Position numbers and translations under genes: made by a program. Below the pieces are notes generated by a model. That model saw only the letters and a program-made list of their open reading frames with translations. It did not search any database and was not told the origin of the DNA. A stretch of DNA of 64,000 bases from Gemmata sp. (lineage in GTDB: Bacteria > Planctomycetota > Planctomycetia > Gemmatales > Gemmataceae), in contig JALHNS010000003.1 in NCBI GenBank assembly GCA_022843445.1, forward strand, positions 164-64,163, in the 5' to 3' direction. Shown piece by piece: positions 21,858-38,075 of the stretch (position 1 is the first letter of the stretch; each line of letters starts with the position of its first letter).

Positions 21858-21875
21858 CGCCAGAGGAGGATCGAC

Positions 21876-22289: not shown

Positions 22290-22356
22290 GCGAGCGTCGG
22301 TGTCATGCCCCGATGACAGGCGAGCGGGGCGATTTGCCGTCGCGTTGCCCGTATTG

Positions 22357-22809: not shown

Positions 22810-23310
22810 TTACGACAACGCAATAGTCGCAGGCACCTTGTGCTTGACGAAGAGGGAATACAACTGTTTGAGTTGCGCCGCCCCAACGTGATCAACTTCG
22901 CACGCGGGCTTCTGCTGCGTAAGTTCAATGGATTCGGATGCGGTTAGAGAGTCGAACAGCAGGATGTCCATAACCAGCCTGGGGTTCTCGTTCTTGAAGC
23001 CAACCGGAACCGTGTGAAGGTCGCCGCTGAGGAACCGCCAGTCGAGGTCGGGGTAGTTCATGACGCCTACTGCCATCGAGAAGAATGCGATCCAGTGACA
23101 CCGACCGTGGGGCTGATGCCACGTCAATTTCCCTGGCACAACGCGGACGCCCTCCGCTCGACCGCTGAGGTGCGGCGGGTCACCTGGGGTCCACCGTGAA
23201 TCGAGCATCTGCATCCCGAAGTCGAGCGACCACTGCACGAGGCGGTGGTCGAGTATCGGTGCGACTCGCGATTTCCACTGTCTGCGCCAGTCGAATTGGG
23301 TGATTCTCAT
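22810..23310 (-). CDS. Hypothetical protein (GRCHW motif)
   Basis: Protein-like aromatic-rich sequence starting MRITQFDW; directly downstream of the rep-like gene. Confidence 0.65.
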   Translation of the reverse strand: MRITQFDWRRQWKSRVAPILDHRLVQWSLDFGMQMLDSRWTPGDPPHLSGRAEGVRVVPGKLTWHQPHGRCHWIAFFSMAVGVMNYPDLDWRFLSGDLHTVPVGFKNENPRLVMDILLFDSLTASESIELTQQKPACEVDHVGAAQLKQLYSLFVKHKVPATIALS

Positions 23311-23465
23311 GTTGATTGCTTGCTTTCTGGGCGAGGCAGTCAAGACCGCTGCGTTCGAGTTTATCGATCACTTCAGAGATTCGGGAAACAAGAACGTGGC
23401 GTCCCCTGCGATCCCGTTCGGGTCGTATAGTTTTCGTTCGTATTGTGTGTGGAGTTAAGGGGCGA

Positions 23466-25307
23466 CTACCCGCTTTCGAGTGGTGGCGAACGTGCTAACC
23501 GCAATTCGGGTTGGTACTGCGTACTAATAGTTAAGTAGTCTGTGTGTGTTGGTAGAGTTGCTTCGCTTCCGAAATCAATCGCTACACTCGCAGGACTCCG
23601 GTACTTGTCGCCTTTGGTAAGCCAGTAATCCGATTGCCCCGGAGCATTTTTGCCGAGAGCGTAACGGATCGCCTTGTGAAGTCTCGGCGAATAGTTCGAG
23701 TCGGTGATGCGGATGATGTCGCGGTCGTGGAACACAGCACGCAAAGCCGCTATCTTTGCCTGCGTGGGTCGGGATGACGTTTTGCCCGTCTTGTGAAGCT
23801 CTTCCCAAAACTCCCAAATCGCATCGAACGGAACTGAACCATCAGCGTTCGGCTTATCGGTGAGCAGCGTCCAGTTAATGGCGAAGTAGGCGCGGCAATC
23901 CTCGCGAGTCAACCGAACGCGAACATCTACGCCACGGTGGTTCAGAGTTTCTGCCCACGCCAACGGGAACTGCCGAACGAACTTGTTCCATTTGCAAAGA
24001 TCGACGTACTTACGGCCTGGGTTTGCCAGTTTCGACGAATCCCAATGGCCGGCAACGTAAGCGCGTAGCACGAACTGGCACCTTGCGATACGGGCCGAAA
24101 GTGTCGAAACCCAATCGCCAGTGAAGAATCCGTTCGTGTGCAGAAAAGCGAGTAACTCGTCAGTTGTCGGCACCCTGCGGAGTTGCTGTGCATAAAGGCG
24201 AGCAATGTCAATCGTCGCTTGCAAACGGTCTGGGTTGTTGTTCGCAGTCGCATAATCACGGCAGCCTGTCGGCATCGTGGTCGCGGTTGTGGGAGGAGTT
24301 TGTGCAGCGGTTGTGGGGGTGACGGTAGGTGTCGTCGTGGCAATGTGGTTGGCGGTGTTGGTGGCAGCGTTTTTCACGAGTCGCGCCGCCCGTCGCGCCT
24401 CAACAACTGTCGTCTCAGCCCGTTTTAGTTCCTCGCGACGTGCAGCCCAACCCGCATCATCTCGCATCGCTTCAAGCCGCGTAACGACGTACTCAAGATC
24501 GGCAATCGAGATTACGTTACACGCCTTGAATCGCTTCAATTCGTGAAAGCTCCAATTCGTATTCCAGGGCAGTTTCGCAAGCTTACCGGAAAGTGTCGGC
24601 GTCGTAATCGTCCCCTTGACCTCAATATCGCAAAGGATGTGGTGGCGGTTGAAAAGGCGTTGCAACGCAGCTTCAAGACGTGTCGCGAGGGCGTTAAAGT
24701 CCTCGATACGGCCAGCGTGGTAAACCTTCACAAAATCGTTCTTGCCCCTCGCGGAATCGCAAGAGAAGGCCATCGGGAACGCGCGGCGAAGTAGCACAGA
24801 ACCGGCTGCGGCATCCGTTTGAAAATCGCAGTGGGCGTCCGTGTCGAGATACAGCATCCCGTAGGCCGTTTTGCCGCTGGTGTAATAGCGTCGATTGCCG
24901 CCGTTTATCGCGTCTTCGCAGTGCTTCGCGCTCAAGATGTGCTGCACGACATCGATATAGGGAATGTAGCATTTGCCGTTCTTTTTCACGACATTGGGTA
25001 TGCGCCCGGCCCGCTTTTCTGCTTTGTACTCGCGCCAGCAACGCCAATCGTCGCGGGTAATAACGTGAAACACATCGAAGGCCAACTCGCCATCAGCATC
25101 GAGGCCAACAACATCCTTCACGCCAGAATCGTAGACGTTGATGTAGGGAGCGAATGCGGCAAAGGTCGATTCCGCGAGATTGGGAATATTCGCGGGAAGG
25201 TCTTGTGGATTTGTGCCAGGGGAGACTAATATACACATGGCTTTCTTTCTGAAGACACACCTCAACTTGACGGCGGGGGTGTGTCTTCTTTTCGTATCTG
25301 GTTCCAC
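23466..25307 (-). CDS. Putative replication protein with AEP (primase-polymerase)-like N-terminal domain
   Basis: hhhDhD motif MLYLDTDAH, SARG, DIEVKG, GKLAKLP; low-complexity linker; helical and wHTH-like C-terminus; visibly lower GC. Confidence 0.6.
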   Translation of the reverse strand: MEPDTKRRHTPAVKLRCVFRKKAMCILVSPGTNPQDLPANIPNLAESTFAAFAPYINVYDSGVKDVVGLDADGELAFDVFHVITRDDWRCWREYKAEKRAGRIPNVVKKNGKCYIPYIDVVQHILSAKHCEDAINGGNRRYYTSGKTAYGMLYLDTDAHCDFQTDAAAGSVLLRRAFPMAFSCDSARGKNDFVKVYHAGRIEDFNALATRLEAALQRLFNRHHILCDIEVKGTITTPTLSGKLAKLPWNTNWSFHELKRFKACNVISIADLEYVVTRLEAMRDDAGWAARREELKRAETTVVEARRAARLVKNAATNTANHIATTTPTVTPTTAAQTPPTTATTMPTGCRDYATANNNPDRLQATIDIARLYAQQLRRVPTTDELLAFLHTNGFFTGDWVSTLSARIARCQFVLRAYVAGHWDSSKLANPGRKYVDLCKWNKFVRQFPLAWAETLNHRGVDVRVRLTREDCRAYFAINWTLLTDKPNADGSVPFDAIWEFWEELHKTGKTSSRPTQAKIAALRAVFHDRDIIRITDSNYSPRLHKAIRYALGKNAPGQSDYWLTKGDKYRSPASVAIDFGSEATLPTHTDYLTISTQYQPELRLARSPPLESG

Positions 25308-25513
25308 TCTATTGTAGTTTTGGACGCCGGCGTTCTCTTATATTTTTTAAGCAACTTTTCCCCGATACAATAAGACTGCCAAGCCGGGGCAAGCTAACCT
25401 AGAAATCCGAAAAATATTGACGCGGCAAGACAGTATCAATAGGCACGAAGTTGGCCCCTGTGTTTGGCAAATGAAGGGTGGCGTGTTCTACCCCGTTAAC
25501 AAGAGGTGACGGT

Positions 25514-25915
25514 ATGGCGAAGACCGAGAAGCCCCCGGCGGAAGACGCGACGAACTTGGAGAAAACGAAGTGGGCGGCGAAGCAACTCGGCGCGGACAAG
25601 GCGAAATTCGCCGAGATCGTGGCGTTGTTGAAGGAGGCAAAGGTGCCGCACTCGGAAGCGTCAATCAGCCAGAGCGTAGCAAAAGCCCGCGAAGAACTGG
25701 GATTCCCGCCACTGCGAGCGAAGCGGAAGACCGGGCCGCAACCGCAAGGGGACGAACCGACCGTCAGCGATTTGAAGGCCGTGCGAAAACTCGCGGAGGA
25801 ACTGAGCATGAAGCCGCACGAACTCCGCGAACTGGTGGGCAAACTCGCCGCGTTTGGTGATCTCGCGAAGCTGGCGGCATGCCTCGATGCACTTGAAGAA
25901 TTGACGAGCGATTGA
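25514..25915 (+). CDS. Small basic putative DNA-binding protein
   Basis: GAGGTG SD; Lys/Ala-rich; C-terminal TVSDLKAVRKLAEEL...LDALEEL helix; divergent from rep across an AT-rich gap. Confidence 0.7.
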   Translation: MAKTEKPPAEDATNLEKTKWAAKQLGADKAKFAEIVALLKEAKVPHSEASISQSVAKAREELGFPPLRAKRKTGPQPQGDEPTVSDLKAVRKLAEELSMKPHELRELVGKLAAFGDLAKLAACLDALEELTSD

Positions 25916-26185
25916 CGGGAGAGGCGACTACCTGCCGGGTTTGTTTTGGTCGCGGGCTGTCATTTCAGAACTCGCCCAAGTCCGTGTATCCACTCCGGGC
26001 AGCGGGTGATCCGGGGAAGCCGACCTGTCGGTAGTGTCGCGGAAAAAGCTCCGGCCAAGAACGGATGGCCTCCCACCGAGGGCGCTGTTCTTGTTTCCCA
26101 ACGTCGATGGCGTTCGTGAAATTGACCTCCGCGTCCGGCAAGTCCTGTGAAAGCGACATTCGCCCCGGCCCCGCCACCGACCCGA

Positions 26186-27598
26186 TCAGGCATCGCTTCC
26201 TTGAATCCGCACCTCTTGTGTCGTTCCACACTTCGAGCAGCGAAACGACGTGTTGATGACGCTGCCCGCCGAAGGGATGGTGGAATTCGTCTGGCCCGGT
26301 TCGACATGGCCGCAGTCGCAGCGTTTCTTGTAGCTGAAACTGCGGCCGTCCGATCCGACGATCACCGCGCCACAGATCGCGTGTGCCTCTCTTGTGCGAC
26401 TCGTTGCGATCTCCCTCGCACCACCAGTTGCGGCCGGGAGCGTTTTTGTTCCAGATGGCGAGGACGGCGACTCTGATTCCGCGAGATCCCCAGTGAGCGA
26501 CCGAGACGAACCGCTTTCACTGCACAGGATTGCGATACCGCCAACCACCAGTGCCGCCGCGACCGCGCCGGCGACCTTTGCCGCGCCAAGCGCGAACCCC
26601 CGCATCGCTTCCTCGGCCTCTTCCCGCCGCTCCCGCTCGATAGTTTGGGTGATGGTCGGGTTGCGGTAGAAGTGGCCCGACTGCCCGTCCGTCTTGACGA
26701 TCAACTCGCTGTCGCTGAGGGAAAGAATCTGGAGCTTGACGGTGGGGCCGTCTTCGGACTCGTAGAGTGCCACCGTCTCGTTGTCGAGCCAGCGGAACTT
26801 GGTGGCGAGTCCGTCTTGGCGCAACATCGCGCCGTCTTCCGTGAACATGAACCATAAGCCCGTGTCGCCGACCTGACGCCAGATGGCGTGCAACTTCTTC
26901 CGCCGGGATGATTCGCTGTCCCCGAACATGCCCTTCCACAATCCCGCGATGCCGACATCCTGCGGAGAGCTTCCATCTTTGGTGACGACCGCTTCCGAAG
27001 GATAGTCGTCATGCGAACGCGGTTCGTCAAAAGCGAATCGAACCGTGTAATGCCCCGGACTGGGGAACGTGACGCCGTACCGACGCTCTTTGGTCGGTGC
27101 CTCGTCGTGTGTCTTCCCGAACACGAAAAGCAGCTTCTTCATTCCCGCGACCGGGGTCAGCGGCACAAGTTTGATGAGGTGCCGTCCGGTGGTGACTTGC
27201 TGCGGGTACTTCAACCGAAACCCATCGGACAGCTTGATCGGGATCACGATGTGGCGGGAGTCGAAATACAACCGAGCTTCGGGATTATTCGTGCCGGACG
27301 GCACACCAGTGAACGGATCGATGATGATCTCGAAGGTGGCGTACCCTGCGGTAATCGAGGGCGCGGCGGCATCAGTCGTCGGGTTTGCTTTGGCCGGCAG
27401 AGGGGGCGGCTTGCGGGTGGCAGGGGCTTGTGGGATGAGTCCCGTTACAGTCCGGGCTTCGACCCATTCCGGCATGGACTCGTTCCACACGAGATCACCG
27501 GCAGCGACCTTCCTCTCGCCGACCAACTGTTTGAGCGCGTCCCACGACACTGGGCCGATCTGTTCGCCACCGACCGAGTAGAACCATTCGGCGTCCAC
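26186..27598 (-). CDS. GYF_2 (DUF4339) domain membrane protein with C-terminal Cys cluster
   Basis: N-terminal WFYSVGGEQIGPVS...DLVWNESMPEW; TM helix; terminal CDCGH...CSKCG. Confidence 0.8.
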   Translation of the reverse strand: MDAEWFYSVGGEQIGPVSWDALKQLVGERKVAAGDLVWNESMPEWVEARTVTGLIPQAPATRKPPPLPAKANPTTDAAAPSITAGYATFEIIIDPFTGVPSGTNNPEARLYFDSRHIVIPIKLSDGFRLKYPQQVTTGRHLIKLVPLTPVAGMKKLLFVFGKTHDEAPTKERRYGVTFPSPGHYTVRFAFDEPRSHDDYPSEAVVTKDGSSPQDVGIAGLWKGMFGDSESSRRKKLHAIWRQVGDTGLWFMFTEDGAMLRQDGLATKFRWLDNETVALYESEDGPTVKLQILSLSDSELIVKTDGQSGHFYRNPTITQTIERERREEAEEAMRGFALGAAKVAGAVAAALVVGGIAILCSESGSSRSLTGDLAESESPSSPSGTKTLPAATGGAREIATSRTREAHAICGAVIVGSDGRSFSYKKRCDCGHVEPGQTNSTIPSAGSVINTSFRCSKCGTTQEVRIQGSDA

Positions 27599-27853
27599 GA
27601 TTCACCTCGAAGGGGGGCTTGTTCGTGCTGTTCAGTGTCGCGCGGAAGTCGCAGCGGCACCCAAAGTGGTGATCGACTTCGGATTGTCTGAGATCCGCAC
27701 CTTCATCTCGTCGTCGGAGATGCCCCATCACTGAAAGCGAGAGTTCTTCGCCGACTGGGGCCATCTTTGCAGTGGTTTCCCGGCCGTGTGGCGGTTTTGC
27801 TCGCGTCGTTTATAACCGACAGACTCGGCAGCGGCCAGACCTAACGTCCCAGA

Positions 27854-28096
27854 ATGACGTTGGGTGGCGAGCTACGAGAGGCGAGGCGAACAGCCGGGCT
27901 TACGCAAGAAGAGCTTGCGGTCGCGGCGAAGGTAGATCGTGGCTACATCTCGGAACTCGAAAACGATCACCAAAGTCCGACCGTGGACATGCTCTACCGT
28001 CTCTGCGGGTCGCTCGGCGTTTTGCCCTCCGTAATCCTTGCTCGTGTCGAAGCTACGCAACGAACCAGCGAGCGGGCCGACACCAAGCCTTCCTGA
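27854..28096 (+). CDS. XRE-family HTH regulator
   Basis: LREARRTAGLTQEELAVAAKVDRGYISELENDHQSPTVDML. Confidence 0.92.
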   Translation: MTLGGELREARRTAGLTQEELAVAAKVDRGYISELENDHQSPTVDMLYRLCGSLGVLPSVILARVEATQRTSERADTKPS

Positions 28097-28360
28097 AGAC
28101 GCATGCCAACTCCCAGTCGCTGAACACAACTCAGAGTTGCCGCTTCGCGTTGCGGTGACAGCCTTGCGAACCGGCCGTGCGGCCGCATCTTCGTCCTCGC
28201 GCACTCGAAGCCGCGAGCCGTCCGCACAGACGCTGCCGCCAGTTACAAACTGGTCCGTCCGGTAGGGGCTGCTTTCGGCTTCACGGCCACGTCCGCAGTC
28301 CGACGCTCACCGAAAATCGCACGACCACCCACCCGGATGCGTGGACACGAAGCCCGCGAT

Positions 28361-30577
28361 TTACTTCTCGTTCGGGATCGTCCAGACCCGCACCTTTCCG
28401 TCGCGGCACCCCGTCACCGCGAACCCCTCGTCCGCGCTGACGGCCGCGTCGGTGACCGGCTCCGGGTGCGGGTCCGAGATGACTGTCTGGCGTTGCGTCT
28501 TCGGTTCCCAGATGCACAACTGACCCTCGGCACCGTAGCTCAGGGTCCGTTTGCCGCCGGGCAATATCACCGTCCGGCGGCTGCCGGGCTTGGCATGGCC
28601 GAGTTGGGCCAGGACATTGAAGGACATCGCCTTGTCCCCCTGGCCGAAGGCGACGATCCCGGCTTCGAGGGTGGTGACGATCAGGCCGAACTCCGAATCG
28701 GCCGTGACGTGCTGAACGCCCGGCATCATGCCGAAGTTGTTCATCTTGCCTCGCGACGAAAGCCCCAACTCGGCCTTGAATGGCATCACTTTCCACAGCG
28801 AGAGTTCGGCGCGTCGGTCGGGTCCGGTCCCGTAGCCGACGAACAGGAGTTCATCGGGCTTGAACGGCGGGTCCGGCACGAAAAACAGCGCGACGGTGGG
28901 TCGGTCGGGCTTGTCCATCGGCGTGACGGCGCGGTTCGCGACCAAATCCCACACGAGCAGCCGTTTGCCGGTTGTCCACGCGAGCCACCTCCCAGTCGGC
29001 GACACCGTCACGGACTGCACGGGGGTGCCGTCCCCGTCCCAACTTCGGATGGGGAACGGTCGCGGTTGGTCTGCGACCACGGGCGACAACGCGAGTCGGC
29101 TGGCGGTCGGTAATGTGGACCACGACGCCCAACCTGCGGCGCGTTCGGCATCCATTCTGGCCCCGACCCACCACTGTCGTAACGTCCCGTCCTCGTGGCC
29201 CGTGAACAGTGAATACCCGCCGTGGCCGAACACCTCGGCGGTCGGCGGCGAGGGCAAATCAACGACAGCGACGGCACCTGTCGGTGACCACAGCCGCAGC
29301 GTCTTCTCGTCGGTGGAGGCGATCCAACCGCCGGCCCGAACCTGCACGGTGCGGACGGCCGACGTGTGTCCTTCGAGTGTTCGGGCCGGCGGTCGGGACG
29401 GGGACTTCTCCTTGTTCGGTTCGGTGCCGGGACCGAACTTGGGTTCGATCTTGGGCGGGATGACCTCGCCATTCTTCTCTGCAACCGGCGCGTCGGGTTC
29501 AGCTTTCGCTTTCGGGTCGTTGGGGCGGCTCAAGTAGATCGCCAAGCCAACAAAACCGGAGGTCACCAGCGCGGCCGGGAGGGGCCACCACCGCGAACGT
29601 GTCGCAGCCGTCGCGGTTTCGAGCGCGTCTGCAAGATCGCCGCCGCGAGCGTATCGCTCATCGGGGTTCCGAGCCAAGCACCGGCGACAGACAGCGATGA
29701 ACGCGGCGGGGACGGCGGGTGCGGCCGGCATTGTGGCCGCAAGGATTTGTTGCCTGACCCTGACCGGGTTGTCGTCCGCAAACGGCACTCGCCCGGTGAG
29801 CATCTCGCACATGATGATGCCGAGGCTCCAGATGTCGGTGCGTCCGTCGAGGGGCTTCCCCTCCAGTTGTTCGGGCGAACTGTAGGCCAGTGTGCCGCGC
29901 TGGTCGCTGCCTTCAAGGAACTCCGCCTTCGGCCGGGCCAGCCCGAAATCGCCGACGTGCGGGGTGCCGGCGCGGTCGAGCAGTATGTTCGCCGGCTTGA
30001 GGTCGCGGTGGACGACGCCCTGGCCGTGGGCGTAGTCGATGGCGCGGGCCACCGTCGCCAGCACTTTAACGACATCGGCAGAGGGCATCGGCCCGCCCCG
30101 CAGCCGGTCGGCGAGCGTCTCGCCGTCGATCAGGTCGCTGACGAGGACGTACCCCGCGCCCTCTTTCAGCACGTCGTGGAGTGTCACGATGTTGACGTGC
30201 TTGAGGCACGCGATTTGACGGGCCTCCGTCAACACCTCGTCAATTTGACGGGCGGTCAGAGTTCGGCTCGGCCTCGGCACCTTCACGGCGACGTGACGAT
30301 GAAGCCGCAGGTCGTAGGCTCGCCACACATCGGCGTACCCACCGCTCCCGATCAGTGCCTCCAGCACATAGCGTTCGGCAAGGGTACGGGGCTGCTGCGG
30401 TGGCTTCGCCGGGCCGCTCATCCATGCGGTCTTTTCGAGCAGGCGGATGCGATCCCGCACGGTATCGAGCAGTTCGGGACATCCCCGGCACAGTTCCTCG
30501 GCAGTGATCGCGTTGCCGCGCTCACGGGCCTCTTCCCAGGTCAACAACAGGTCGGCGATCCGCTCCTCATCCGTCAT
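28361..30577 (-). CDS. Membrane Ser/Thr protein kinase with C-terminal WD40 repeats
   Basis: IGSGGYADV, VAVK, HRDLKPANIL, DFGLA, GTLAYSSPEQ; TM segment; GHTSAVRTV...LRLWS and GCRDGKVRVW repeats. Confidence 0.95.
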   Translation of the reverse strand: MTDEERIADLLLTWEEARERGNAITAEELCRGCPELLDTVRDRIRLLEKTAWMSGPAKPPQQPRTLAERYVLEALIGSGGYADVWRAYDLRLHRHVAVKVPRPSRTLTARQIDEVLTEARQIACLKHVNIVTLHDVLKEGAGYVLVSDLIDGETLADRLRGGPMPSADVVKVLATVARAIDYAHGQGVVHRDLKPANILLDRAGTPHVGDFGLARPKAEFLEGSDQRGTLAYSSPEQLEGKPLDGRTDIWSLGIIMCEMLTGRVPFADDNPVRVRQQILAATMPAAPAVPAAFIAVCRRCLARNPDERYARGGDLADALETATAATRSRWWPLPAALVTSGFVGLAIYLSRPNDPKAKAEPDAPVAEKNGEVIPPKIEPKFGPGTEPNKEKSPSRPPARTLEGHTSAVRTVQVRAGGWIASTDEKTLRLWSPTGAVAVVDLPSPPTAEVFGHGGYSLFTGHEDGTLRQWWVGARMDAERAAGWASWSTLPTASRLALSPVVADQPRPFPIRSWDGDGTPVQSVTVSPTGRWLAWTTGKRLLVWDLVANRAVTPMDKPDRPTVALFFVPDPPFKPDELLFVGYGTGPDRRAELSLWKVMPFKAELGLSSRGKMNNFGMMPGVQHVTADSEFGLIVTTLEAGIVAFGQGDKAMSFNVLAQLGHAKPGSRRTVILPGGKRTLSYGAEGQLCIWEPKTQRQTVISDPHPEPVTDAAVSADEGFAVTGCRDGKVRVWTIPNEK

Positions 30578-31214
30578 CCCGGTGTCCCTCCCGCTCGATG
30601 GCCGCGCCCAGGCGGAGCCGAGCCGACTGCCACCGCCGCTTGACCGTCCGCAGCGAGACGCACAGAACTTGAGCGGCTTCTTCTTGGGTCAACTCGCTGA
30701 CGAACAGCAGGTCCACGACGGCGCGTTCCTCGTCGGGGAGTGCTTCGATCATCTGGTGAAGGCGATCCCACCCGACCGGCATTTCGGTGTCTTCGGCGAC
30801 GGCCGGCAAGCGACTCTCGCCGTCCGTCTGGTGGTTCGCACCGACCCCGTGCGGCCCGAAATGGTGCCGGTGCAAGTCGTGCAGTTCGCGCCGAATCTGG
30901 AGGCCCGCCAACCCGAAGAACTCGCCCACCGTCGCCGGCCGGACCTGCTTTAGCGCCCGGTAAAGTCGGAGCATCGACTGCTGAAGCACGTCATCCGTTT
31001 CCACCCACCGCCGCAACGCGGGGAAGCCGCGCAGCTTCCGCCGGGCCAACACCCGCAGGCGTTCGGAGGCCCGGAGCAGAAGCTCGTTGAACACCTCCTC
31101 GTTCGTCAACGACGGCGCGTCCAACAGACGTTGCATCGCGGTTGTGGTGGAGTTCACGGGAGCAGCCGAGGGGGACGAAATCAGCCCGCCGACCGACCCG
31201 CCGGGCTGCTCCAT
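30567..31214 (-). CDS. ECF sigma-70 factor (kinase-associated planctomycete type)
   Basis: Sigma2 ETDDVLQQSMLRL...IRRELHDL; sigma4 LPDEERAVVDL...LTQEEAAQVLCVSLRTVKRRW; overlaps the kinase start by 11 nt. True start may be 31157 or 31136. Confidence 0.92.
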   Translation of the reverse strand: MEQPGGSVGGLISSPSAAPVNSTTTAMQRLLDAPSLTNEEVFNELLLRASERLRVLARRKLRGFPALRRWVETDDVLQQSMLRLYRALKQVRPATVGEFFGLAGLQIRRELHDLHRHHFGPHGVGANHQTDGESRLPAVAEDTEMPVGWDRLHQMIEALPDEERAVVDLLFVSELTQEEAAQVLCVSLRTVKRRWQSARLRLGAAIEREGHRDDG

Positions 31215-31465
31215 TGGTTTACGCTCGCGACCGCCAGAGAAAGCGAGAATTCGCGGCGAAATGGGGCCACGAAACCAGCAAAAAATCTCTGCGAAAAGCG
31301 GGCGCAGTTCGAGAGACGAGCGCGTTTCCCGCTTGATAGAGGCTTGCGGGGTTTGTCGCCGGCGCGGTCACGCTGTCAGCCAGAATCCGTCACCGGCTGT
31401 GGCCCCTTTCGCGCCGCCGTTCTCGCTTTCAGAAACAGCGAGGGCCGCACAGCGAGGGTATCAGC

Positions 31466-32167
31466 ATGCCGAGCGTCTGGTTCCTGTTGCGCGACGGCCG
31501 CAGATACGGCCCGTTCCACTTCGAGCAACTTCAGAAGATGACGACAACCGGCCAATTACTGCCGGTCGATCTGCTCGCCCAGGACGATGGTGGGCCGTGG
31601 GTGCCGGCCGCACAGGTCGGTGGGCTGTTCGCTCCCTCTCACAAGTCGGGTCAAGATTCACCCTTCGATTTCAGCGCCGGTACCGAAGGCGAAGAGGAGG
31701 AATCGCCGCCCGCGCCCACCAGTCGGGAGCCGAACTCGGCTCAGAAGAACAAGTTCGTCCCATTTGCCGCTGCCGGCGTTCTGGGCGTAGCTCTGATCGG
31801 CGCGGTGGTCTTCGTTTTGGCCCGCAACGGCACGCGGGAGACGCCCGCACAGGATACCGCGTCGAAGGGGCAGACGAGCGACGGAAAATCGAACGCACGG
31901 TCGGGAAACCGGCGACCGGGCAAGACGTACTTGGACGACGTGATCGCGGAGCGGGGACCGCCCATCGGCTCCTACGCCCGAAAGCACAACACGTCGAGTA
32001 GCGCCGATGAGTTCCTGCACGTCTGGAAGAACGGCACGACGGGTTACGACCTCGTGTTCACAGCGGTCCTGACGAAAGTCTCTGAACCGGAGTTCGTTCA
32101 GAGTATCCAGACGAATTTCGACAAGAACCGACTCGACGCGATCCTGAAGGGCTACCGCCCCAGATAG
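31466..32167 (+). CDS. GYF_2 (DUF4339) domain membrane protein
   Basis: WFLLRDGRRYGPFHFEQL...GPWVPAAQVGGLF; one TM helix. Confidence 0.8.
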   Translation: MPSVWFLLRDGRRYGPFHFEQLQKMTTTGQLLPVDLLAQDDGGPWVPAAQVGGLFAPSHKSGQDSPFDFSAGTEGEEEESPPAPTSREPNSAQKNKFVPFAAAGVLGVALIGAVVFVLARNGTRETPAQDTASKGQTSDGKSNARSGNRRPGKTYLDDVIAERGPPIGSYARKHNTSSSADEFLHVWKNGTTGYDLVFTAVLTKVSEPEFVQSIQTNFDKNRLDAILKGYRPR

Positions 32168-32247
32168 CGCTGCGAGGGTGACCGCTCCAAGTGACCCGGC
32201 TTTTTCCAACTCAGTTGATCAGGGCTTCCATTCTCACGGAGACAGCG

Positions 32248-33063
32248 ATGCGATACGCGATTCTGGCGGTGCTGGCGGTCGGTCTGACGGGCGGCGTGCT
32301 GCTCTGGTCGGGTGCCTTCGGCTCGCGCGGCGAGGTCGCGAAGAAGAAGGCGCTGGACAAGCTCGATGACGCACTCGGCAAGATGGACGTGCAGAAGGCC
32401 GAGATCGATGGCGGCATCAAGTCGGCGAAGAAGGCGGTCGGTGAACTCCGCAGGGCCAAGCATCAGGCCCAGGCCCAACTCGATCTGCTCGATGAGAAGG
32501 TGCGTCCGCACCAAGACAAGATGGCGCGGTGCGACGAGACGCTCGCCAAGCTCCGCGATCTGATCACGGCTGACGTGCCGGCCGAACTCGCGGGAAAGAC
32601 GTACTCGGTCGCCGAACTCAAAGCGATGGCAACCAAGATCCTTGAGGCCCGCAAGGAGTCGGAAGAGAAGATCAAGGGATTCGAGAATGCCCGGAGCAGC
32701 ATGAGGAACGTGGTCGCGACGATCACGAAGAGGCAGGAAGATCTCGAAGCCCGCGTAGCCAAGCTGGAAGCGGCCAAAGCGAAACTCGACGCCGAGTACG
32801 CGGCGGCGCAGGCGATGAAGAAGGCGTCGGCCGCGATGGGCGATTCGGACGCCACCCTCGGCGAGAACCTTGACGAACTGGAGAAGAAGATCGCTGTGCT
32901 GTCCGGGGATGTGAAAGCGGAACTGGCGGGCGAATCGGAGAAGTTCGCGGCCACCGGCGCGGACAAGACCACTAGCGAAGTGGATGCGTTCTTGAAGGCC
33001 GCGTCGTCGCCGGGCGATCCGGTCGGCGAGATCGACAAGATTCTCGGCCCCGCGAAGAAGTGA
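32248..33063 (+). CDS. Membrane-anchored coiled-coil protein (PspA/IM30-like)
   Basis: N-terminal hydrophobic anchor and long heptad-rich helices; GGAG upstream. Confidence 0.7.
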   Translation: MRYAILAVLAVGLTGGVLLWSGAFGSRGEVAKKKALDKLDDALGKMDVQKAEIDGGIKSAKKAVGELRRAKHQAQAQLDLLDEKVRPHQDKMARCDETLAKLRDLITADVPAELAGKTYSVAELKAMATKILEARKESEEKIKGFENARSSMRNVVATITKRQEDLEARVAKLEAAKAKLDAEYAAAQAMKKASAAMGDSDATLGENLDELEKKIAVLSGDVKAELAGESEKFAATGADKTTSEVDAFLKAASSPGDPVGEIDKILGPAKK

Positions 33064-33093
33064 GCCAGTTTCATTGTTCAACGGGAGCGCACC

Positions 33094-34074
33094 GTGACTA
33101 TCCGCAGCGCCGGCCGACGCGCCGGCTTTACTCTGTTGGAACTGATCGTCGCTGTCGCGGTCATCGCCGTGATTGCCGGACTGTGCTTCTGGCTGATCGG
33201 CTGTGTCAACAGGAACGAGCAGACGAACTCGACCGGCGAGCCGAACAGGTTGGCGTCCCGGTTGGCGGGCGAGTGGGTGGCTGTTGAAGTCAAATCGAAC
33301 GACAAGAAGGCCGTGAAGCTGCACTTCACAAGCGGCACGAACAAGCTGGTCTATTCCTACGTCGAGCGCGTGAGGCTCCCGATGCAGAGTCGAATGGACC
33401 CGCCCGTTTACACCGGCGAGGAGCGGAAGCAGTCGCGCACTTACGACATCGAGAAGCACACAGATCGGTCGATCCGTCTGAAGAAAGAGCCATTGGGTCA
33501 GGTGGAGATCGAGTTCGAGTTCGCCTCGGACGATGAGTTCGTCGCGATCTACAAGTGCGGGTGGGACACGCTCGAACCGAGGGTGCAAGGGCGCTTCCGC
33601 CGAGTCGTGCCTCGCACGCCGGCCCCCAGTCCAGACACCAGCCCGCTCGCGCAGGCAAAACAACACGTCCAGCGGATCGAACTGAAGCTCCAGAAGGTCG
33701 AGGCAGTTCAGCGAGAAGCACATCAGGAGCGAGACGCCCTGGTCGTCAAGCTCCGTGAGTTGGGCGTCGAGAGTGCGGCCGACTTGAAGAAGAACCCGCG
33801 TGCGCAACGGGCGGCGGAAAACCTCGCCAAGCTCGCCGCCGAGATCGAAGCGACGGATTCGCAACTGGCGACCATCGACACCGAGTTGCTCAAGGCGCGG
33901 TCGATTGTCCGGCGGATGGAACGCGAGCAGGCCGGCATCTCCGACGAGGAGATGAAGAAGCTCGCGGAGCAGTTGCGGGACGCCGAGGCGCGAACGGAAG
34001 CGGCTCCTCGGCCGATCACCCCGCTCGATGTCGATGCGGCCCTGAACGCGGCATTCGGAAAAAAGAAGCGGTAG
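33094..34074 (+). CDS. Prepilin-type N-terminal cleavage/methylation domain protein with coiled-coil C-terminus
   Basis: Class III signal RRAG|FTLLELIVAVAVIAVIAG. Confidence 0.8.
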   Translation: MTIRSAGRRAGFTLLELIVAVAVIAVIAGLCFWLIGCVNRNEQTNSTGEPNRLASRLAGEWVAVEVKSNDKKAVKLHFTSGTNKLVYSYVERVRLPMQSRMDPPVYTGEERKQSRTYDIEKHTDRSIRLKKEPLGQVEIEFEFASDDEFVAIYKCGWDTLEPRVQGRFRRVVPRTPAPSPDTSPLAQAKQHVQRIELKLQKVEAVQREAHQERDALVVKLRELGVESAADLKKNPRAQRAAENLAKLAAEIEATDSQLATIDTELLKARSIVRRMEREQAGISDEEMKKLAEQLRDAEARTEAAPRPITPLDVDAALNAAFGKKKR

Positions 34075-34121
34075 GTTCCAGAGACGGCGAGCTTGGCCGC
34101 GTTTATCAGAAGGAGGCAACC

Positions 34122-34697
34122 ATGACGACCAAGAAGATCCCGCGTGCCGAGTTCGACTGGGCGAAATTCGCTGGTGCCATCACCGAGTTCACGCAGTCCC
34201 TGACCCTCGGCTCGGTCGAGCCGTTCGTGATCGTGGAACACGGCAAGTTGATCCTCGATGACGAAGATCTCACGCTCGCGGACGACGAACAGATCCCGAC
34301 TGATCCCACTGAGCGTCTCGAAGCCGGGTGCCATCTCTTCGCCCCGTTCGCGGTGTTTCGCGATTTCGGCGAACTGGCCTGCGCCGATGGCGACGTGATC
34401 GAGGTTCCTGATCTGGGCGAAGCGGATTTGGAAGAAGACGAGGACGAAGACGCCCCACGGCTGACCGCGAAACAGCGAGAGTTGATCGAGGCCACGGTCT
34501 GCGACGAAAACCACTCCTACGGGTTCCAGATCACGTTGGATGGCGCGAACCTCGTCTTCCGGTCGGTGCTGGTCAACGAGTCGGACGGCGAATGCGATGT
34601 CGAGGCCGTCGAAGTTGCCGGTCTTGTGGACAAGCCGATGACGCGGTTCCTGAAGGGCTTCAGCAAGCAGAGGTCGAACAAGTCGCGGCGGGCGTGA
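34122..34697 (+). CDS. Acidic hypothetical protein
   Basis: 191 aa; AGGAGG SD. Confidence 0.75.
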   Translation: MTTKKIPRAEFDWAKFAGAITEFTQSLTLGSVEPFVIVEHGKLILDDEDLTLADDEQIPTDPTERLEAGCHLFAPFAVFRDFGELACADGDVIEVPDLGEADLEEDEDEDAPRLTAKQRELIEATVCDENHSYGFQITLDGANLVFRSVLVNESDGECDVEAVEVAGLVDKPMTRFLKGFSKQRSNKSRRA

Positions 34698-34806
34698 CGG
34701 AGCAAATCCGGCGGGATCGAAACGCTGCCAGTTTCGGCGTGTGGACACGTTGCGATCAGCGATGTCGGGGAACAATCTCGAACAAGGGCGACTTCATCAC
34801 ATCAGA

Positions 34807-34835
34807 TTTACAAACCCGCGAGATCGGTCTACTAT
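34807..34835 (+). promoter_or_regulatory. Sigma70-type promoter upstream of xis
   Basis: TTTACA-N17-TACTAT. Confidence 0.6.
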
Positions 34836-34947
34836 GATCCTTGTCTACACAATCTGATCGACTTGTCGGGATGCCGAGCCTCGCTGCTCATTTTTGCCTG
34901 GACGAGTCCCAACCACCCCCGCCAAAGCGGGGATCGGGGACTTTGCC

Positions 34948-35181
34948 ATGACAGCGAAAGATGCTTCGCGCGAGCTACAGGTATCGCTCTCGTTCGTGTA
35001 CAAGCTGATGGACCAGGGCGAGATCACCTACGAGCGGCGGGGAACGCGCAAGCTGCCGGTGGACCAATCCGTCGAGGAATACAAGCGCCGAAACCTCGTT
35101 GCGGCTTCGGCGGAACAGCACAGGCCGGTCAAAGGACCGGCCCCCCAATTCAGCCACCTCTTTACCGCACGAAAGAAGTGA
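34948..35181 (+). CDS. xis: Excisionase-like winged-HTH protein
   Basis: MTAKDASRELQVSLSFVYKLMDQGEITYERRG; converges on the integrase. Confidence 0.8.
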   Translation: MTAKDASRELQVSLSFVYKLMDQGEITYERRGTRKLPVDQSVEEYKRRNLVAASAEQHRPVKGPAPQFSHLFTARKK

Positions 35182-35183
35182 AA

Positions 35184-36284
35184 TCAAAAGACCTTGAAGC
35201 CATCTAACACATTGTGGACCGCCGCGTGTTCGTCGCACAGGTGTCCGTAATGCTGCCGAATCATCTTCAGGTCTTTGTGGCCGAGTAGCACGCGAAGATA
35301 TTCAAGTTTGTCGGGGTTCGCGACGATGAATTTTGTCGCGAAACTGTGGCGCAAACCGTACAGGTACAGCTTTTCAGGCCATTCGAGATTCTTCGTGTCC
35401 TTGAACTTGTTTTGCAATTGGTACAGATAGACGCCGAGCGATGCGGAAGTCCACGGTCGTCCGTGTGCGTTACGGAAGATCGGCCCGTTCGGGTGTTGGC
35501 CGTTCTTCTTCTCGACCAACTCGATGGCTTCTGAAACGAGCCAAATCCGTTTGACGTACTTGTTTTTGTTTAGGCGCAACTTGTAAAGGTCTTCCACATC
35601 CCACAGCTTCAAGTCTGGCCTGAAGTGTCGGGCTTCGACGCGACAAACCGTAGACGGCCTCGCGCCGGTCAGGGCGAGGACGCGGACTACGTCGGCGAAC
35701 GCGGGGTTCGCAACCCTCAGTACCTGCTCGTAGACTTTCGCATCCCACAAGACATCCCCGCCACGGGCCTCGCCTTCGGGGAGTTCAAGCATTCCCCGCA
35801 GGGGATTGCTGGCGATGAGCCGGACTTTCGGCTTCGTGGCCCAGTTCAGCACGGCGAGAATGATGCTCTTGTAATTCCGCTCGGTCCCGGCTGACGCGAT
35901 GCACGTCACCCGTTGGCCTTTGACCTTCTCCTTCAACGTCGGCTGCTTTTTGTCCTCGATCCACCGATTGACGTGACTGGCCCGGAGGTCGCGCACGCGG
36001 ACACCGAGGCCAATGGAACGGACGAACTCTTCGAGCCGGTCCTTGCACAGCCGGTAGCGGTCCTCTGCGTGGTTCTCCTTGACGTGGGCGAGCCACTGAT
36101 CCGCGACCTCCGCGAACGGGGGGTTCTTGTCCACGGACTCACCGAGGTCGGCCTTGTTCAGCAGGAAATGGAACTGCCGCTCGGCAATCGTCTTGTCGGT
36201 GCCGAGGCGGTGGAACACGCCATCGATGGTCGTGGTGTACTGCTCCAGACTCTCCGTCCAGTTCAGTTTCGGTTTGCGGGCCAT
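35184..36284 (-). CDS. int: Tyrosine recombinase/integrase
   Basis: Start re-called at MARKPKLNW (36284), 366 aa; TGARP, YGLRHSFAT, LLGH, HYGH catalytic motifs; N-terminal arm-binding-like domain. Confidence 0.95.
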   Translation of the reverse strand: MARKPKLNWTESLEQYTTTIDGVFHRLGTDKTIAERQFHFLLNKADLGESVDKNPPFAEVADQWLAHVKENHAEDRYRLCKDRLEEFVRSIGLGVRVRDLRASHVNRWIEDKKQPTLKEKVKGQRVTCIASAGTERNYKSIILAVLNWATKPKVRLIASNPLRGMLELPEGEARGGDVLWDAKVYEQVLRVANPAFADVVRVLALTGARPSTVCRVEARHFRPDLKLWDVEDLYKLRLNKNKYVKRIWLVSEAIELVEKKNGQHPNGPIFRNAHGRPWTSASLGVYLYQLQNKFKDTKNLEWPEKLYLYGLRHSFATKFIVANPDKLEYLRVLLGHKDLKMIRQHYGHLCDEHAAVHNVLDGFKVF

Positions 36285-36329
36285 GTCGAAACTCCGTTGT
36301 GGTGCCGGGTGGCGTTCTCTGGTTTCCAC

Positions 36330-36351
36330 CCGTTCTTTGTGCCGTTCTTTG
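36330..36351. repeat. Tandem 10-bp direct repeats, probable integrase arm-type sites
   Basis: CCGTTCTTTG at 36330-36339 and 36342-36351; degenerate GCGTTCTCTG at 36312-36321. Confidence 0.6.
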
Positions 36352-36441
36352 CGCCGGCACGCTTTCCTGAAAAGCACCAAAACCGCGAGTCTCTCGATTT
36401 GCGTGGGGAAATGCAGAACTTTCGCGCAAAGAATTGCACCG

Positions 36442-36492
36442 TCAGTGTATGCGGCCCATGAAGCCGATGCCGACGATGCCGATGCGGACCAT
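36442..36492 (-). pseudogene. 5' fragment of a Gfo/Idh/MocA oxidoreductase gene cut by the island (att junction)
   Basis: GGAGG SD (36502-36498), then ATG-VRIGIVGIGFMGRIH-TGA: a Rossmann GxGxxG start stopped after 16 codons. Confidence 0.8.
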
Positions 36493-36707
36493 GAGAGCCT
36501 CCGGAGAGTGTGCCCGTCGTTATCGGGGCCGCGAACCGCGATTGCAAGCGCCCTTCGCGGCGCGCGGGCGCTCGGCTTCGGTTCGTCGGCGACCTTTCGG
36601 CGCGCGACTCGACCGCGCGGGAGTGACGGCCTTTCTCGTTGCTCTCGCGACGGCACGTTCGGTAAAAGAGTAGTGTCCGCACTTCCGTTCTCATTGAGGC
36701 GCAGGCC

Positions 36708-38075
36708 ATGATCCGGCTCGACGCGAACCGCCCGGCTTCGTTCTGCGACGGCTCTACGCGCCGCGACTTCCTCCACGCCGGCGCGCTCGCGCCGCTCGGC
36801 ATCACGCTCGCCGGCGCGAACCGCGGTCGGGCCGAAGGCACACCCGACACCGACGTGAACTGCATCATGCTGTTCCTCGTCGGCGGGCCGAGTCAGCTCG
36901 ACACGTGGGACATGAAGCCCAAAGCCCCGGCCGAAGTGCGCGGGCCGTTCGCGCCCGCGAAGACCAACGTGCCCGGCATTGAGATCGCCGAGACGTTCCC
37001 CAAGATGGCGAAGCACGCCGACAAGTTTTCGCTCGTGCGCACCGTGTATCACACCGCGACCGCGGTTCACGACACCGGCCACCAGATGATGCAAACCGGC
37101 CGGCTGTTCGCCGGCGGCATCGAGTACCCGCACGTCGGCTGCGCGCTCGGCTACCTGAAGGGCGGGCGCGGCGAACTGCCCGCGCACGTTCTCGTTCCCA
37201 AGCCGATCGGACGCACCGGCGGGAACCTGCCGCACGGCCACTCCGCCGGCTACCTCGGCAAACCGCACGACCCGTTCATCTTGAACGCGGACCCGAACGC
37301 GCCCGGGTTCAAAGTGCCGGACCTGCTCCCGCCGGAATACCTCAGCGCGCTCCGCGCCGAACGTCGCCAGAAACTGCGCGACGCGGTGGACGGCGCGACC
37401 TCGGCGTTCGAGCAAAGCGGCGCGGCGAAGCAACTCGACGACAACTTCAAGCTCGCCTACAAGCTGATGTCCAGCACCAAAGCCCGCGACGCCTTCGCGC
37501 TCGAAAAGGAGAGCGACAAGACGAAGGACCGCTACGGCCGCACGCGGTTCGGCCAGTCGTGCCTGATGGCGCGCCGACTGATCGAAGCCGGGGTGCGGTT
37601 CGTGACCGTGAACATGTTCGAGACGGTGTTCGACGAGGTGACTTGGGACATTCACGGCTCGAAGCCGTTCACGGACATCGTGCAGATGTCGAAAGAGGTG
37701 GTGCCGAACTTCGACGCGGCGTACACGGCGCTGCTCGAAGACCTGCACGACCGCGGGCTGCTGAAGACGACGATGGTGGTCGCGGTCGGCGAGTTCGGGC
37801 GCACGCCGAAGGTGAACCCTGCCGGCGGGCGCGATCACCACCCCGGCGCGTGGACCGTCGTAATGGGCGGCGGCCCGCTGAAGGGCGGCACCGTTGTGGG
37901 CGAGACCGACGAACTCGGTTACGCGCCGAAGACGCGCCCCGTGACGCCCGGCGAAGTGGCCGCGACCATCTTCAAGGGCCTCGGCCTCGACCCGCACAAG
38001 GAACTGCCCGGCCCTCAGAACCGCCCGATCCCGCTCGCGGACTTCAACGTGAAGCCGATCGGCGAGCTGTTCTAA
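36708..38075 (+). CDS. DUF1501 domain protein
   Basis: Tat-like TRRDFL; LFLVGGPSQLDTWDMKP, QSCLMARRLIEAGVRFV, WDIH, GEFGRTPKVN, GRDHH. Confidence 0.93.
   Translation: MIRLDANRPASFCDGSTRRDFLHAGALAPLGITLAGANRGRAEGTPDTDVNCIMLFLVGGPSQLDTWDMKPKAPAEVRGPFAPAKTNVPGIEIAETFPKMAKHADKFSLVRTVYHTATAVHDTGHQMMQTGRLFAGGIEYPHVGCALGYLKGGRGELPAHVLVPKPIGRTGGNLPHGHSAGYLGKPHDPFILNADPNAPGFKVPDLLPPEYLSALRAERRQKLRDAVDGATSAFEQSGAAKQLDDNFKLAYKLMSSTKARDAFALEKESDKTKDRYGRTRFGQSCLMARRLIEAGVRFVTVNMFETVFDEVTWDIHGSKPFTDIVQMSKEVVPNFDAAYTALLEDLHDRGLLKTTMVVAVGEFGRTPKVNPAGGRDHHPGAWTVVMGGGPLKGGTVVGETDELGYAPKTRPVTPGEVAATIFKGLGLDPHKELPGPQNRPIPLADFNVKPIGELF

What the first reader, a model, noticed from the sequence alone, without database searches (positions are those of the whole stretch)
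36442..36502. Island integrated inside a Gfo/Idh/MocA oxidoreductase gene rather than a tRNA
A strong SD (GGAGG) and the start of a Rossmann fold (MVRIGIVGIGFMGRIH) end abruptly in TGA ~160 nt from the integrase start. No ORF caller would report this 16-codon stub. It fixes the right att junction near 36,440-36,460 and predicts that the rest of the gene lies at the far left end of the island. The element may supply a replacement 5' end there, or excision may act as a switch restoring the gene.
Basis: partly seen in the sequence, partly recalled or inferred. Interest (0 to 1): 0.65.

Follow-up and report, generated by a model that had tools for sequence, protein, structure and literature searches.

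The report
Island rebuilds oxidoreductase gene's start
A mobile island of at least 45 kb sits inside the first codons of a conserved sugar-type oxidoreductase gene of a Gemmata-like planctomycete and brings its own recoded copy of the gene's start, so the gene stays whole; the mechanism is known (dusA, prfC), but this target gene and its dedicated integrase family appear undescribed.

Summary
On the minus strand there is GGAGG (36502-36498), an ATG at 36492 and 16 codons (MVRIGIVGIGFMGRIH). A TGA follows at 36444-36442, 158 nt before the integrase ATG at 36284.

The predicted rest of the gene exists, but on another contig of the same assembly (C189). There a complete 337-aa Gfo/Idh/MocA gene starts with the same 16 residues. 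Codons 2-10 differ at 9 bases, all synonymous. The two copies share a 14-bp identical core, ATGCGGCCCATGAA (window 36449-36462; C189 4498-4511). Five exact GCRCAAAGAAYKG arm repeats lie only on the island side of the two cores.

One relative's complete chromosome shows both junctions around a 25.6-kb island. In 29 genomes of the genus, the gene's 5' segment is duplicated only in the four that carry this integrase. About 19 of 22 integrase relatives across Planctomycetota have the same kind of stub upstream.

So the element supplies a replacement 5' end. An excision switch is not needed. The mechanism matches dusA islands and SXT/prfC. The target gene and integrase clade were not found in the literature searched.

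The parts
36442..36492 (-). Orphaned native 5' end of the Gfo/Idh/MocA gene: 16 codons (MVRIGIVGIGFMGRIH) plus TGA, which runs into island DNA after the core.
   Evidence: sequence; the same 16 aa start the full gene on C189; pattern match at C3:36612-36655, which is window 36449-36492.
36498..36502 (-). Shine-Dalgarno sequence GGAGG of the native gene start.
36503..36580 (-). Native-type upstream region of the target gene (element GATAAC.ACG..CACAC..GGAG). It now sits upstream of the stub and, further on, of int.
   Evidence: it resembles the upstream regions of G002, G008, G006, G023 and G017 and the attR copies of G012 and G014. It does not resemble the island-type upstream regions.
36449..36462 (.). 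attR copy of the 14-bp identical core ATGCGGCCCATGAA (codons F11-M-G-R-I15 of the gene). The match extends to 36444 with one mismatch at 36448.
   Evidence: The identical block lies at C189 4498-4511.
36424..36436 (+). Arm-type repeat GCGCAAAGAATTG, inverted relative to the other two, 13 nt from the core.
36330..36354 (-). Two tandem arm-type repeats (GCGCAAAGAACGG and GCACAAAGAACGG) between the core and int.
   Evidence: all 3 exact matches in 64 kb lie in 36330-36436; two more lie at C189 4620-4644.
35184..36284 (-). Tyrosine integrase, 366 aa, intact.
   Evidence: PF00589, 32.9 bits against a 27.1 cutoff. (phrog_1, 1.4e-34). (motifs LRHSF and GHKDLKMIRQHY).
34948..35181 (+). Small excisionase-like HTH protein (77 aa), convergent with int.
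   Evidence: TIGR01764, 24 bits, below cutoff; HTH_17, 24.3 bits, below cutoff; phrog_66. Orthologous position beside int: (L031, L038). PF12728 (L073; L075; L079; G012).
1..36448 (.). Island DNA (int-proximal part). Cargo: YgjP, type I R-M with an embedded dCTP-deaminase gene, an RND plus CDF efflux set, NnrU/methyltransferase/LysR, a lower-GC block of unknown genes (23.4-27.6 kb), Ser/Thr kinase-WD40, ECF sigma, and GYF and N-methyl proteins.
   Evidence: The island runs off the contig end, because attL is on C189.
36708..38075 (+). Host flank: DUF1501 gene, followed by a PSCyt/DUF1553 gene at 38091-40559.
   Evidence: orthologs at 79-88% identity in most of 29 genus genomes, but not next to the Gfo gene there.

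Best explanation
A site-specific integrative island with a tyrosine integrase and a small excisionase-like HTH protein has recombined with the chromosome inside codons 11-15 of a single-copy, conserved Gfo/Idh/MocA oxidoreductase gene. These codons (F-M-G-R-I) encode part of the GxGxxG Rossmann fingerprint.

The element's attP carries its own upstream region, ribosome-binding site and a synonymously recoded copy of codons 1-10, placed just before the core. After integration this mimic is fused in frame to the host gene body; this junction is attL, on contig C189. The protein there is unchanged: 337 aa, with the first 16 residues identical to the native ones.

The native upstream region plus codons 1-16 are left behind at the other junction, attR, at window 36442-36502. 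There the reading frame runs into the island's arm and stops at TGA, 158 nt before int.

Shown here: both junctions, the 14-bp core, arm repeats confined to the island side of both cores, an intact gene, and the same architecture on one contiguous chromosome of a relative and in distant Planctomycetota.

Inferred, not shown: the crossover lies inside the 14-bp block; Int binds the GCRCAAAGAAYKG repeats; the island-borne upstream region contains the promoter that now drives the gene; the element can still excise.
For: - Stub and full gene; outside a roughly 50-nt stretch the two junction sequences are unrelated. Inside it, codons 2-10 differ at 9 of 27 bases with 0 amino-acid changes. In 200,000 random substitution trials none reached this. 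G014 has 7 differences and 0 amino-acid changes, P = 3e-5.
- The C189 gene is full length and single copy, with orthologs in 39 of 41 relatives and a syntenic downstream neighbour.
- Arm repeats. All 3 exact window matches lie at 36330-36436, and both C189 matches at 4620-4644.
- G012 has a complete chromosome. Its attL (island-type 5' end plus full gene at 6070234) and attR (native-type upstream region, stub, arm repeats and int at 6094672-6095909) bracket 25.6 kb of different cargo. G014 has the same two junction types.
- Genus census. The 5' segment is duplicated in exactly the 4 of 29 genomes that hold the integrase.
- The upstream region of the window stub is native-type, and that of C189 is island-type.
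- Family level. Of the 19 integrase loci fetched from outside the genus set, 16 have a Rossmann 5' stub ending just after TTYATGGG, 140-300 nt upstream of int. In three distant genomes the only GFMGMIH-coding site lies 37-63 kb downstream of int on the same strand. It is preceded by arm repeats that match that genome's own int-side arms.
- The C189 island side encodes a full-length match to phrog_14719.
Against: - The two junctions of this genome are on different contigs of a 636-contig draft. Both contigs end in repeated sequence. It is therefore not proven that they bound one uninterrupted element or come from one strain.
- The DUF1501 side is not syntenic with relatives. The conserved upstream neighbour of the gene sits on contig C295 instead.
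- No consensus sigma-70 promoter was found in the island-supplied upstream region.
- No attB or attP contig is in the assembly, and reads could not be examined. Current excision is therefore untested.
Confidence: 0.9

Rival explanations
1. Gene switch: integration inactivates the oxidoreductase gene, and only excision restores it. This would resemble comK, sigK or spsM-type regulated prophage excision.
For: The native upstream region and first 16 codons are separated from the gene body. No consensus promoter was detected upstream of the C189 copy.
Against: - The C189 gene is a complete 337-aa frame aligned end to end with orthologs.
- An AAGGGGG ribosome-binding-site-like sequence lies 8 nt before its ATG.
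- The island-borne codons differ only synonymously in G000 and G014.
- The island-type upstream block is conserved among islands.
Confidence: 0.03
2. The window junction is not a host-island junction. It would be an island-island (attP-like) junction of a tandem array, or part of a second element, so the stub would be an element-borne mimic rather than the native gene start.
For: Such junctions exist in relatives: in G011:C430, L031, L032 and L034, int is preceded by an island-type stub. The DUF1501 adjacency is not found in any relative.
Against: - The stub's first 44 nt match the island-free gene of G023 at 43 of 44 positions.
- Its upstream region carries the native-type GATAAC.ACG.CACAC element and no arm repeats.
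- DUF1501 and its neighbours are core genes, with orthologs at 79-88% identity across most genomes of the genus.
Confidence: 0.05
3. The stub is a chance short ORF or a relic of a paralog duplication, unrelated to site-specific recombination.
For: Rossmann GxGxxG starts are common. Dozens of Gfo/Idh/MocA-like candidates turned up in the first-pass scan of each genome. A 22-nt match to a probable paralog on contig C155 was seen.
Against: - The stub has 16 of 16 residues identical to one specific ortholog.
- The identity breaks off sharply at a 14-bp core next to an integrase.
- Duplication of the 5' segment co-occurs with the integrase in 4 of 4 carriers and in none of the other 25 genomes.
- The architecture repeats in distant genomes.
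Confidence: 0.02

Closest known systems
dusA-specific genomic islands and prophages with DusA-associated integrases (Farrugia et al. 2015, PMC4482086)
   Same: A tyrosine integrase targets one site in the 5' end of a conserved protein-coding gene. The element replaces the gene's 5' end with its own sequence. A remnant of the original 5' end is left at the other junction. Cargo is variable (for the paper's statements).
   Different: The target gene is a Gfo/Idh/MocA oxidoreductase, not dusA. The hosts are Planctomycetota, not Proteobacteria. The integrase has no tblastn match in 50,697 phage records and only about 30% partial matches in plasmids. Here the replacement is amino-acid-identical (16 of 16). 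Sequence relatedness to DusA-associated integrases was not tested directly.
SXT/R391 integrative conjugative elements in the 5' end of prfC (Hochhut & Waldor 1999, as cited in PMC2791158)
   Same: Int-mediated attP x attB recombination in the 5' end of a conserved gene, helped by an Xis-type directionality factor. From my own knowledge, SXT also supplies a new 5' coding end and promoter for prfC.
   Different: The target is different. No conjugation genes were found in the 45 kb of island held here. The cargo is R-M and efflux genes, not antibiotic resistance.
Phage 21 and e14 in icd, and other elements that duplicate a gene's 3' end
   Same: The element carries a copy of the part of the gene it displaces, so the gene stays functional (own knowledge).
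   Different: Those elements rebuild the 3' end and need no promoter. Here the 5' end, the ribosome-binding site and presumably the promoter are supplied by the element.
ICEclc Pcirc-type rewiring of int expression by integration state
   Same: Possible analogy only. Int lies downstream of att and is co-oriented with the stub. Its upstream context therefore switches between the host gene's native upstream region (integrated form) and the island's own mimic upstream region (excised form).
   Different: This is pure inference here. No transcript data exist, and only the absence of a terminator-like site on that strand between stub and int was checked.

Membership tests
Tyrosine recombinase / phage integrase (PF00589) | Catalytic-domain profile match above the curated cutoff. 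| tested here: met
   PF00589, 32.9 bits against a 27.1 cutoff; phrog_1, E 1.4e-34.
Tyrosine recombinase / phage integrase (PF00589) | Conserved catalytic residues (Arg I, Arg II in LRH, His, and the Tyr nucleophile). | tested here: inconclusive
   LRHSF and GHKDLKMIRQHY align with box II of the structurally solved integrases 6en0 and 1aih. Arg I (GARPS) was assigned by eye only. The residue three positions before Arg II is Tyr, not His.
Site-specific integrative island with att sites | A direct repeat (core) at both junctions, with host sequence outside and element sequence inside. | tested here: met
   14-bp identical core; native-type versus island-type flanks; both junctions lie on one chromosome in G012.
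Site-specific integrative island with att sites | Arm-type repeats on both sides of attP. | tested here: met
   5 exact copies, all within about 135 nt of the cores; the arm sequence co-varies between the two ends in G445, G446 and G448. Binding itself is not testable here.
Site-specific integrative island with att sites | Detectable excision products (attB and attP). | not testable with these tools
no third copy exists in the assembly.
dusA-associated integrase islands | Integration in the 5' end of dusA. | tested here: not met
   The target is a GFO_IDH_MocA protein (PF01408 and PF22725).
dusA-associated integrase islands | The element replaces the gene's 5' end. | tested here: met
   This feature is shared in mechanism, not in family membership.
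SXT/R391 ICE | Integration in prfC and a conserved conjugative core. | tested here: not met
   The target is different. No relaxase or T4SS domains were found in the ORFs scanned. The island interior is incompletely assembled.
Temperate prophage | Phage structural and packaging genes. | tested here: not met
   none found in the held 45 kb. The only PHROG hits besides int and xis are of unknown function or are a weak cold-shock match.

The most novel reading that the evidence does not exclude
This is one member of a Planctomycetota-wide integrase clade of at least 154 protein clusters. On this reading its attachment site is the DNA that encodes the dinucleotide-binding fingerprint (G-F-M-G) of one conserved Gfo/Idh/MocA gene, used in the way other elements use tRNA genes.

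Each element carries a recoded start of the gene. Elements stack in tandem. After they decay they leave their own upstream region and 5' end permanently in place. Several island-free relatives have island-type 5' regions with degenerate arm repeats, consistent with this.

Because int is always co-oriented downstream of the stub, its transcription may be wired to the target gene's upstream region in the integrated state and to the element's own mimic upstream region in the excised state.
Probability: 0.35. Interest if true: 0.6.

Novelty: new member of a known kind. Interest (0 to 1): 0.45.

Why it matters
- It gives Planctomycetota, a phylum with very few characterised mobile elements or genetic tools, a defined integrase/attB/attP system. 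The chromosomal target is short, conserved and single-copy, which makes it a candidate for site-specific integration vectors in Gemmata and relatives.
- It adds a third, independent case (after dusA and prfC) in which an element that enters the 5' end of a core gene must carry a working copy of that gene's start. Here the signature is unusually clean: only synonymous changes.
- It also flags a way in which mobile elements can permanently replace the upstream region and first codons of a core gene.
- For annotation, it explains a 16-codon stub that gene callers skip, and it links two contigs of a draft genome.

Tried and rejected
- Second copy of the junction inside the window or to its left. 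There is none, and only 163 bases lie left of the window on the contig.
- tRNA target. No tRNA gene was found in the window.
- Joining C189 to C3. Both contig ends fall in repeated sequence that is 90-94% identical to other contigs (C165, C353, C23), so no join could be made.
- Synteny of the DUF1501 flank. It is absent in relatives.
- Consensus sigma-70 promoter scans of both upstream regions found nothing. This is uninformative, because the scan covers only sigma-70-type consensus promoters.
- An even sample of 400 genomes of the phylum had no integrase relative at E <= 1e-50. In that search only the top few candidates per genome were scored.
- Phage and plasmid collections gave no match or only distant matches.
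- Literature searches for Gfo/Idh/MocA or MocA as an integration site, and for Gemmata islands, returned nothing relevant.
No reads could be laid, so attB and attP could not be sought.
- The conserved backbone beyond int and the HTH gene is minimal; cargo differs completely between G000 and G012.
- The AEP-like replication-protein idea noted by another reader for 23466-25307 found no Pfam, NCBIfam or PHROG support. I do not rely on it.

Full report
**1. The observation**

One search shows, on the minus strand, GGAGG (36502-36498), five bases, then ATG at 36492. The frame reads GTC CGC ATC GGC ATC GTC GGC ATC GGC TTC ATG GGC CGC ATA CAC and ends at TGA (36444-36442). This translates to MVRIGIVGIGFMGRIH*.

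The integrase frame starts at ATG 36284, 158 nt further on the same strand, and ends at 35184. DUF1501 starts at 36708 on the plus strand.

ARAGORN finds no tRNA gene in the whole window.

**2. Where the rest of the gene is**

The window is C3:164-64163 of a 636-contig, 7.39-Mb draft. Nothing useful lies to its left on that contig.

A short-word BLAST of the junction against the whole assembly picked out contig C189. C189 carries, on its minus strand, a complete 337-aa Gfo/Idh/MocA gene (3528-4541). Pfam reports PF01408 and PF22725. Its first 16 residues are exactly those of the stub.

I aligned the two junctions on the gene strand:
- They are unrelated upstream of the ATG.
- They are similar from the ATG to codon 16.
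- They are unrelated again afterwards.

Within the similar stretch there is a 14-bp identical block, ATGCGGCCCATGAA on the plus strand. It lies at window 36449-36462 and at C189 4498-4511. One mismatch follows, then four more shared bases.

Upstream of the block, codons 2-10 differ at 9 of 27 bases without any amino-acid change. The window has GTC CGC ATC GGC ATC GTC GGC ATC GGC. C189 has GTA AGG ATC GGG ATT GTT GGG ATA GGG. None of 200,000 random substitution trials reached zero amino-acid changes.

**3. Which side is host and which is island**

The gene is single-copy, with orthologs in 39 of 41 relatives. Within the genus these are 71-85% identical. Its downstream neighbour on C189 is syntenic in relatives. 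C189 1-4497 is therefore host DNA.

The approximately 75 nt upstream of the window stub carry the element GATAAC.ACG..CACAC..GGAG. The same element precedes the gene in G002, G006, G008, G017 and G023, none of which carries this integrase, and at the integrase-side junctions of G012 and G014. The stub's first 44 nt match the G023 gene at 43 of 44 positions.

The upstream region on C189 is of a second type: AAACACTCAAAAACAAGGGGGAAACGCAT, preceded by GGCGCAAAGAACGGCGCAAAGAATGG. This type is shared with the gene-side junctions of G011, G014 and G012.

The repeat GCRCAAAGAAYKG has three exact matches in the 64-kb window. All three lie at 36330-36436, between the core and int; two are tandem and one is inverted. 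It has two exact matches in C189, at 4620-4644, just upstream of the replacement gene start. This is the layout expected for P and P' arm-type sites of one attP.

The first large gene on the island side of C189 (5443-8133) is a full-length match to phrog_14719.

I therefore read the window junction as attR (native 5' end, then island) and the C189 junction as attL (island, then replacement 5' end and gene body).

**4. Direct demonstration in relatives**

In G012, a one-contig chromosome, both junction types lie 25.6 kb apart:
- At 6070234 there is the island-type upstream region, ATG GTA CGG ATC GGA... and the full gene.
- At 6095909 there is the native-type upstream region, the stub MVCIGIVGIGFMGWIHI*, the repeat GGCACAAAGAATGGCACAAAGAAT, and an integrase 47% identical to ours with one TAG inside it.

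The G012 cargo is different from ours: a transposase, a patatin-like protein, a haem peroxidase and cytochrome c. It also has an HTH_17 gene convergent with int, as in the window.

G014 shows the same two junction types on two contigs, with an 18-bp identical core.

In a census of 29 genomes of the genus, a 44-nt degenerate pattern for codons 1-15 is present once in 23 genomes and absent in two. It is present twice in exactly G000, G011, G012 and G014. These are the only four genomes with an integrase match at E <= 1e-80. The reversed-pattern control gave zero matches.

**5. The integrase family**

The integrase passes PF00589 (32.9 bits against a 27.1 cutoff). It has the box II motifs LRHSF and GHKDLKMIRQHY.

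It has at least 154 relatives (90% identity clusters; the 120 listed are 47-89% identical). All are from metagenomes or MAGs, and the few that carry names are labelled Gemmataceae or Pirellulales. There is no tblastn match in 50,697 phage records and only about 30% partial matches in plasmids.

I fetched 19 relatives from public contigs. Sixteen have, 140-300 nt upstream of int and co-oriented with it, a Rossmann-type gene start that breaks off just after TTYATGGG. Examples are MVRIGIVGIGFMGMIA*, MIRIGIVGIGFMGMRNG..*, MVNVGIVGIGFMGINPS* and MNVGLVGIGFMGMN*. Tandem arm repeats lie between the stub and int.

The three exceptions are:
- L074, which has an IS21 element directly upstream.
- L035 and L039, which are near-identical copies of one sequence.

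In four distant genomes the sequence coding for GFMG(M)IH occurs exactly once. In three of them it lies 37, 37 and 62.5 kb downstream of int on the same strand.

In all four it is the start of the orthologous gene. It is preceded by tandem repeats that match the arm repeats beside that genome's own int:
- GCGAAAAGAAGT in G446
- GCGAAAGAGATAGC in G445
- GCACAAAGAAT in G447 and G448

This co-variation of arms between the two ends argues strongly that the repeats are functional. It also argues that the two junctions in each genome belong to one element.

**6. Mechanism**

Shown:
- a core shared by both junctions
- arm repeats confined to the element side
- an intact integrase with a convergent excisionase-like HTH gene at 34948-35181. 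The window copy scores just below the cutoffs. Genes at the same position beside int in other islands pass PF12728
- an intact target gene whose first ten codons come from the element

Inferred:
- Int bound to arm and core sites exchanges strands within TTCATGGGCCGCAT.
- The element's 110 nt between the P' arms and the ATG contain the promoter that now drives the gene. Only an AAGGGGG ribosome-binding-site-like motif is visible, and no sigma-70 consensus was found.
- Selection keeps the mimic synonymous because the Rossmann beta1-loop is essential for the enzyme.
- The native upstream region may now read through the stub into int, because no terminator-like site lies on that strand between them.

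**7. Extent and content of the island**

Since attL is on another contig, the island includes all of window 1-36448 plus C189 4512-13219. That is at least 45.3 kb, with an unassembled gap. Both contig ends fall in repeats that are 90-94% identical to other contigs.

Cargo:
- YgjP, and HsdR/S/M with an embedded dCTP-deaminase gene
- an OEP/MFP/RND efflux set and a CDF transporter
- NnrU, a methyltransferase and LysR
- a lower-GC block (0.56) of unknown genes
- a Ser/Thr kinase-WD40 protein, an ECF sigma factor, and GYF and N-methyl proteins

No conjugation or phage structural genes were seen. How the element moves between cells is unknown.

**8. Caveats**

The junctions of this genome are on separate contigs of a draft.

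The DUF1501 flank is not syntenic. DUF1501 orthologs in relatives lie 150 kb to 1 Mb from the gene or on other contigs. The conserved upstream neighbour of the gene in native-type relatives sits at the start of contig C295, and homology ends about 220 nt before the point where the gene would start. This genome therefore has a rearrangement breakpoint just upstream of the stub's upstream region.

**9. Comparison and novelty**

[quoted passage not shown] It is also that of SXT/R391 in the 5' end of prfC (PMC2791158).

This case is not a member of either family, because the target gene differs and no conjugative core is present.

I found no paper naming a Gfo/Idh/MocA gene as an integration site, or describing such islands in Planctomycetota.

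I rate it a new member of a known kind. It is well supported and useful for planctomycete genetics, but not mechanistically surprising.

Noticed in passing
Relatives G021, G015, G009, G001, G003 and G005 (loci L056, L049, L057, L060, L043, L040): These genomes have one copy of the gene's 5' segment and no integrase match. Even so, the gene's upstream region is island-type (AAAACA.GGG.GAAA). In G021, G015 and G009 it is preceded by degenerate tandem arm repeats. They look like relics in which an element-derived upstream region and 5' end became fixed after the island was lost. G009 is an incomplete MAG, so its attR may simply be missing.
   Followed up: partly
G011:C430 (L026/L030), L031, L032 and L034: Int is preceded by an island-type stub rather than a native one. 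In L032 there are also arm repeats upstream of the stub. That is, the junction is attP-like, as expected for tandem accretion of two islands at the rebuilt site.
   Followed up: partly
G000 contig C295:13-726 and window 36503-36707: The conserved upstream neighbour of the Gfo gene in native-type relatives is at the start of contig C295. Homology stops about 220 nt before the point where the gene would begin. The stub instead abuts DUF1501. A genome-specific rearrangement breakpoint therefore lies just upstream of the stub's upstream region.
   Followed up: partly
Window 1-446 (C3:147-609); C189:12596-13219: Both contig ends that should face each other inside the island fall in repeated sequence. 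C3:147-609 is 94% identical to the end of C165 and 90% to C353. The end of C189 is 90.6% identical to the start of C23. G011's related island carries C3-left-end-like and C23-like DNA next to its attL.
   Followed up: partly
L001 (C189) 5443-8133 (+): An 896-aa AAA_22 ATPase with a C-terminal cold-shock domain. It matches phrog_14719 over its full length (E 7e-217), and the cold-shock domain part weakly matches the retron Se72 effector model. It may be a defence or regulatory gene of the element.
   Followed up: no
Window 36482-36494: The start of the stub (TC ATG GTC CGC AT) is a 12-of-13 copy of the core (TC ATG GGC CGC AT), 33 nt away. The gene encodes M-V-R-I and M-G-R-I. It is probably an accident of the coding sequence, though it could be a secondary site.
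   Followed up: no
L031 (CAYUHJ010000132.1): This contig has a 75%-identical integrase, the same stub and arm repeats, and homologs of window 20904-22286. It is labelled as an uncultured Alcaligenaceae MAG, which is probably a binning error for a planctomycete contig.
   Followed up: no
L080 (G446) and L081 (G445): In these MAGs the orthologous target gene downstream of the island is cut short or frameshifted. I cannot tell from the sequence whether this is real decay or assembly indel error.
   Followed up: no
L035 and L039 (int loci without a stub): Two near-identical loci lack a recognisable stub upstream of int, although arm repeats are present. In G448 the full gene with matching P' arms lies 37 kb downstream. 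The stub seems to have been deleted or replaced.
   Followed up: partly
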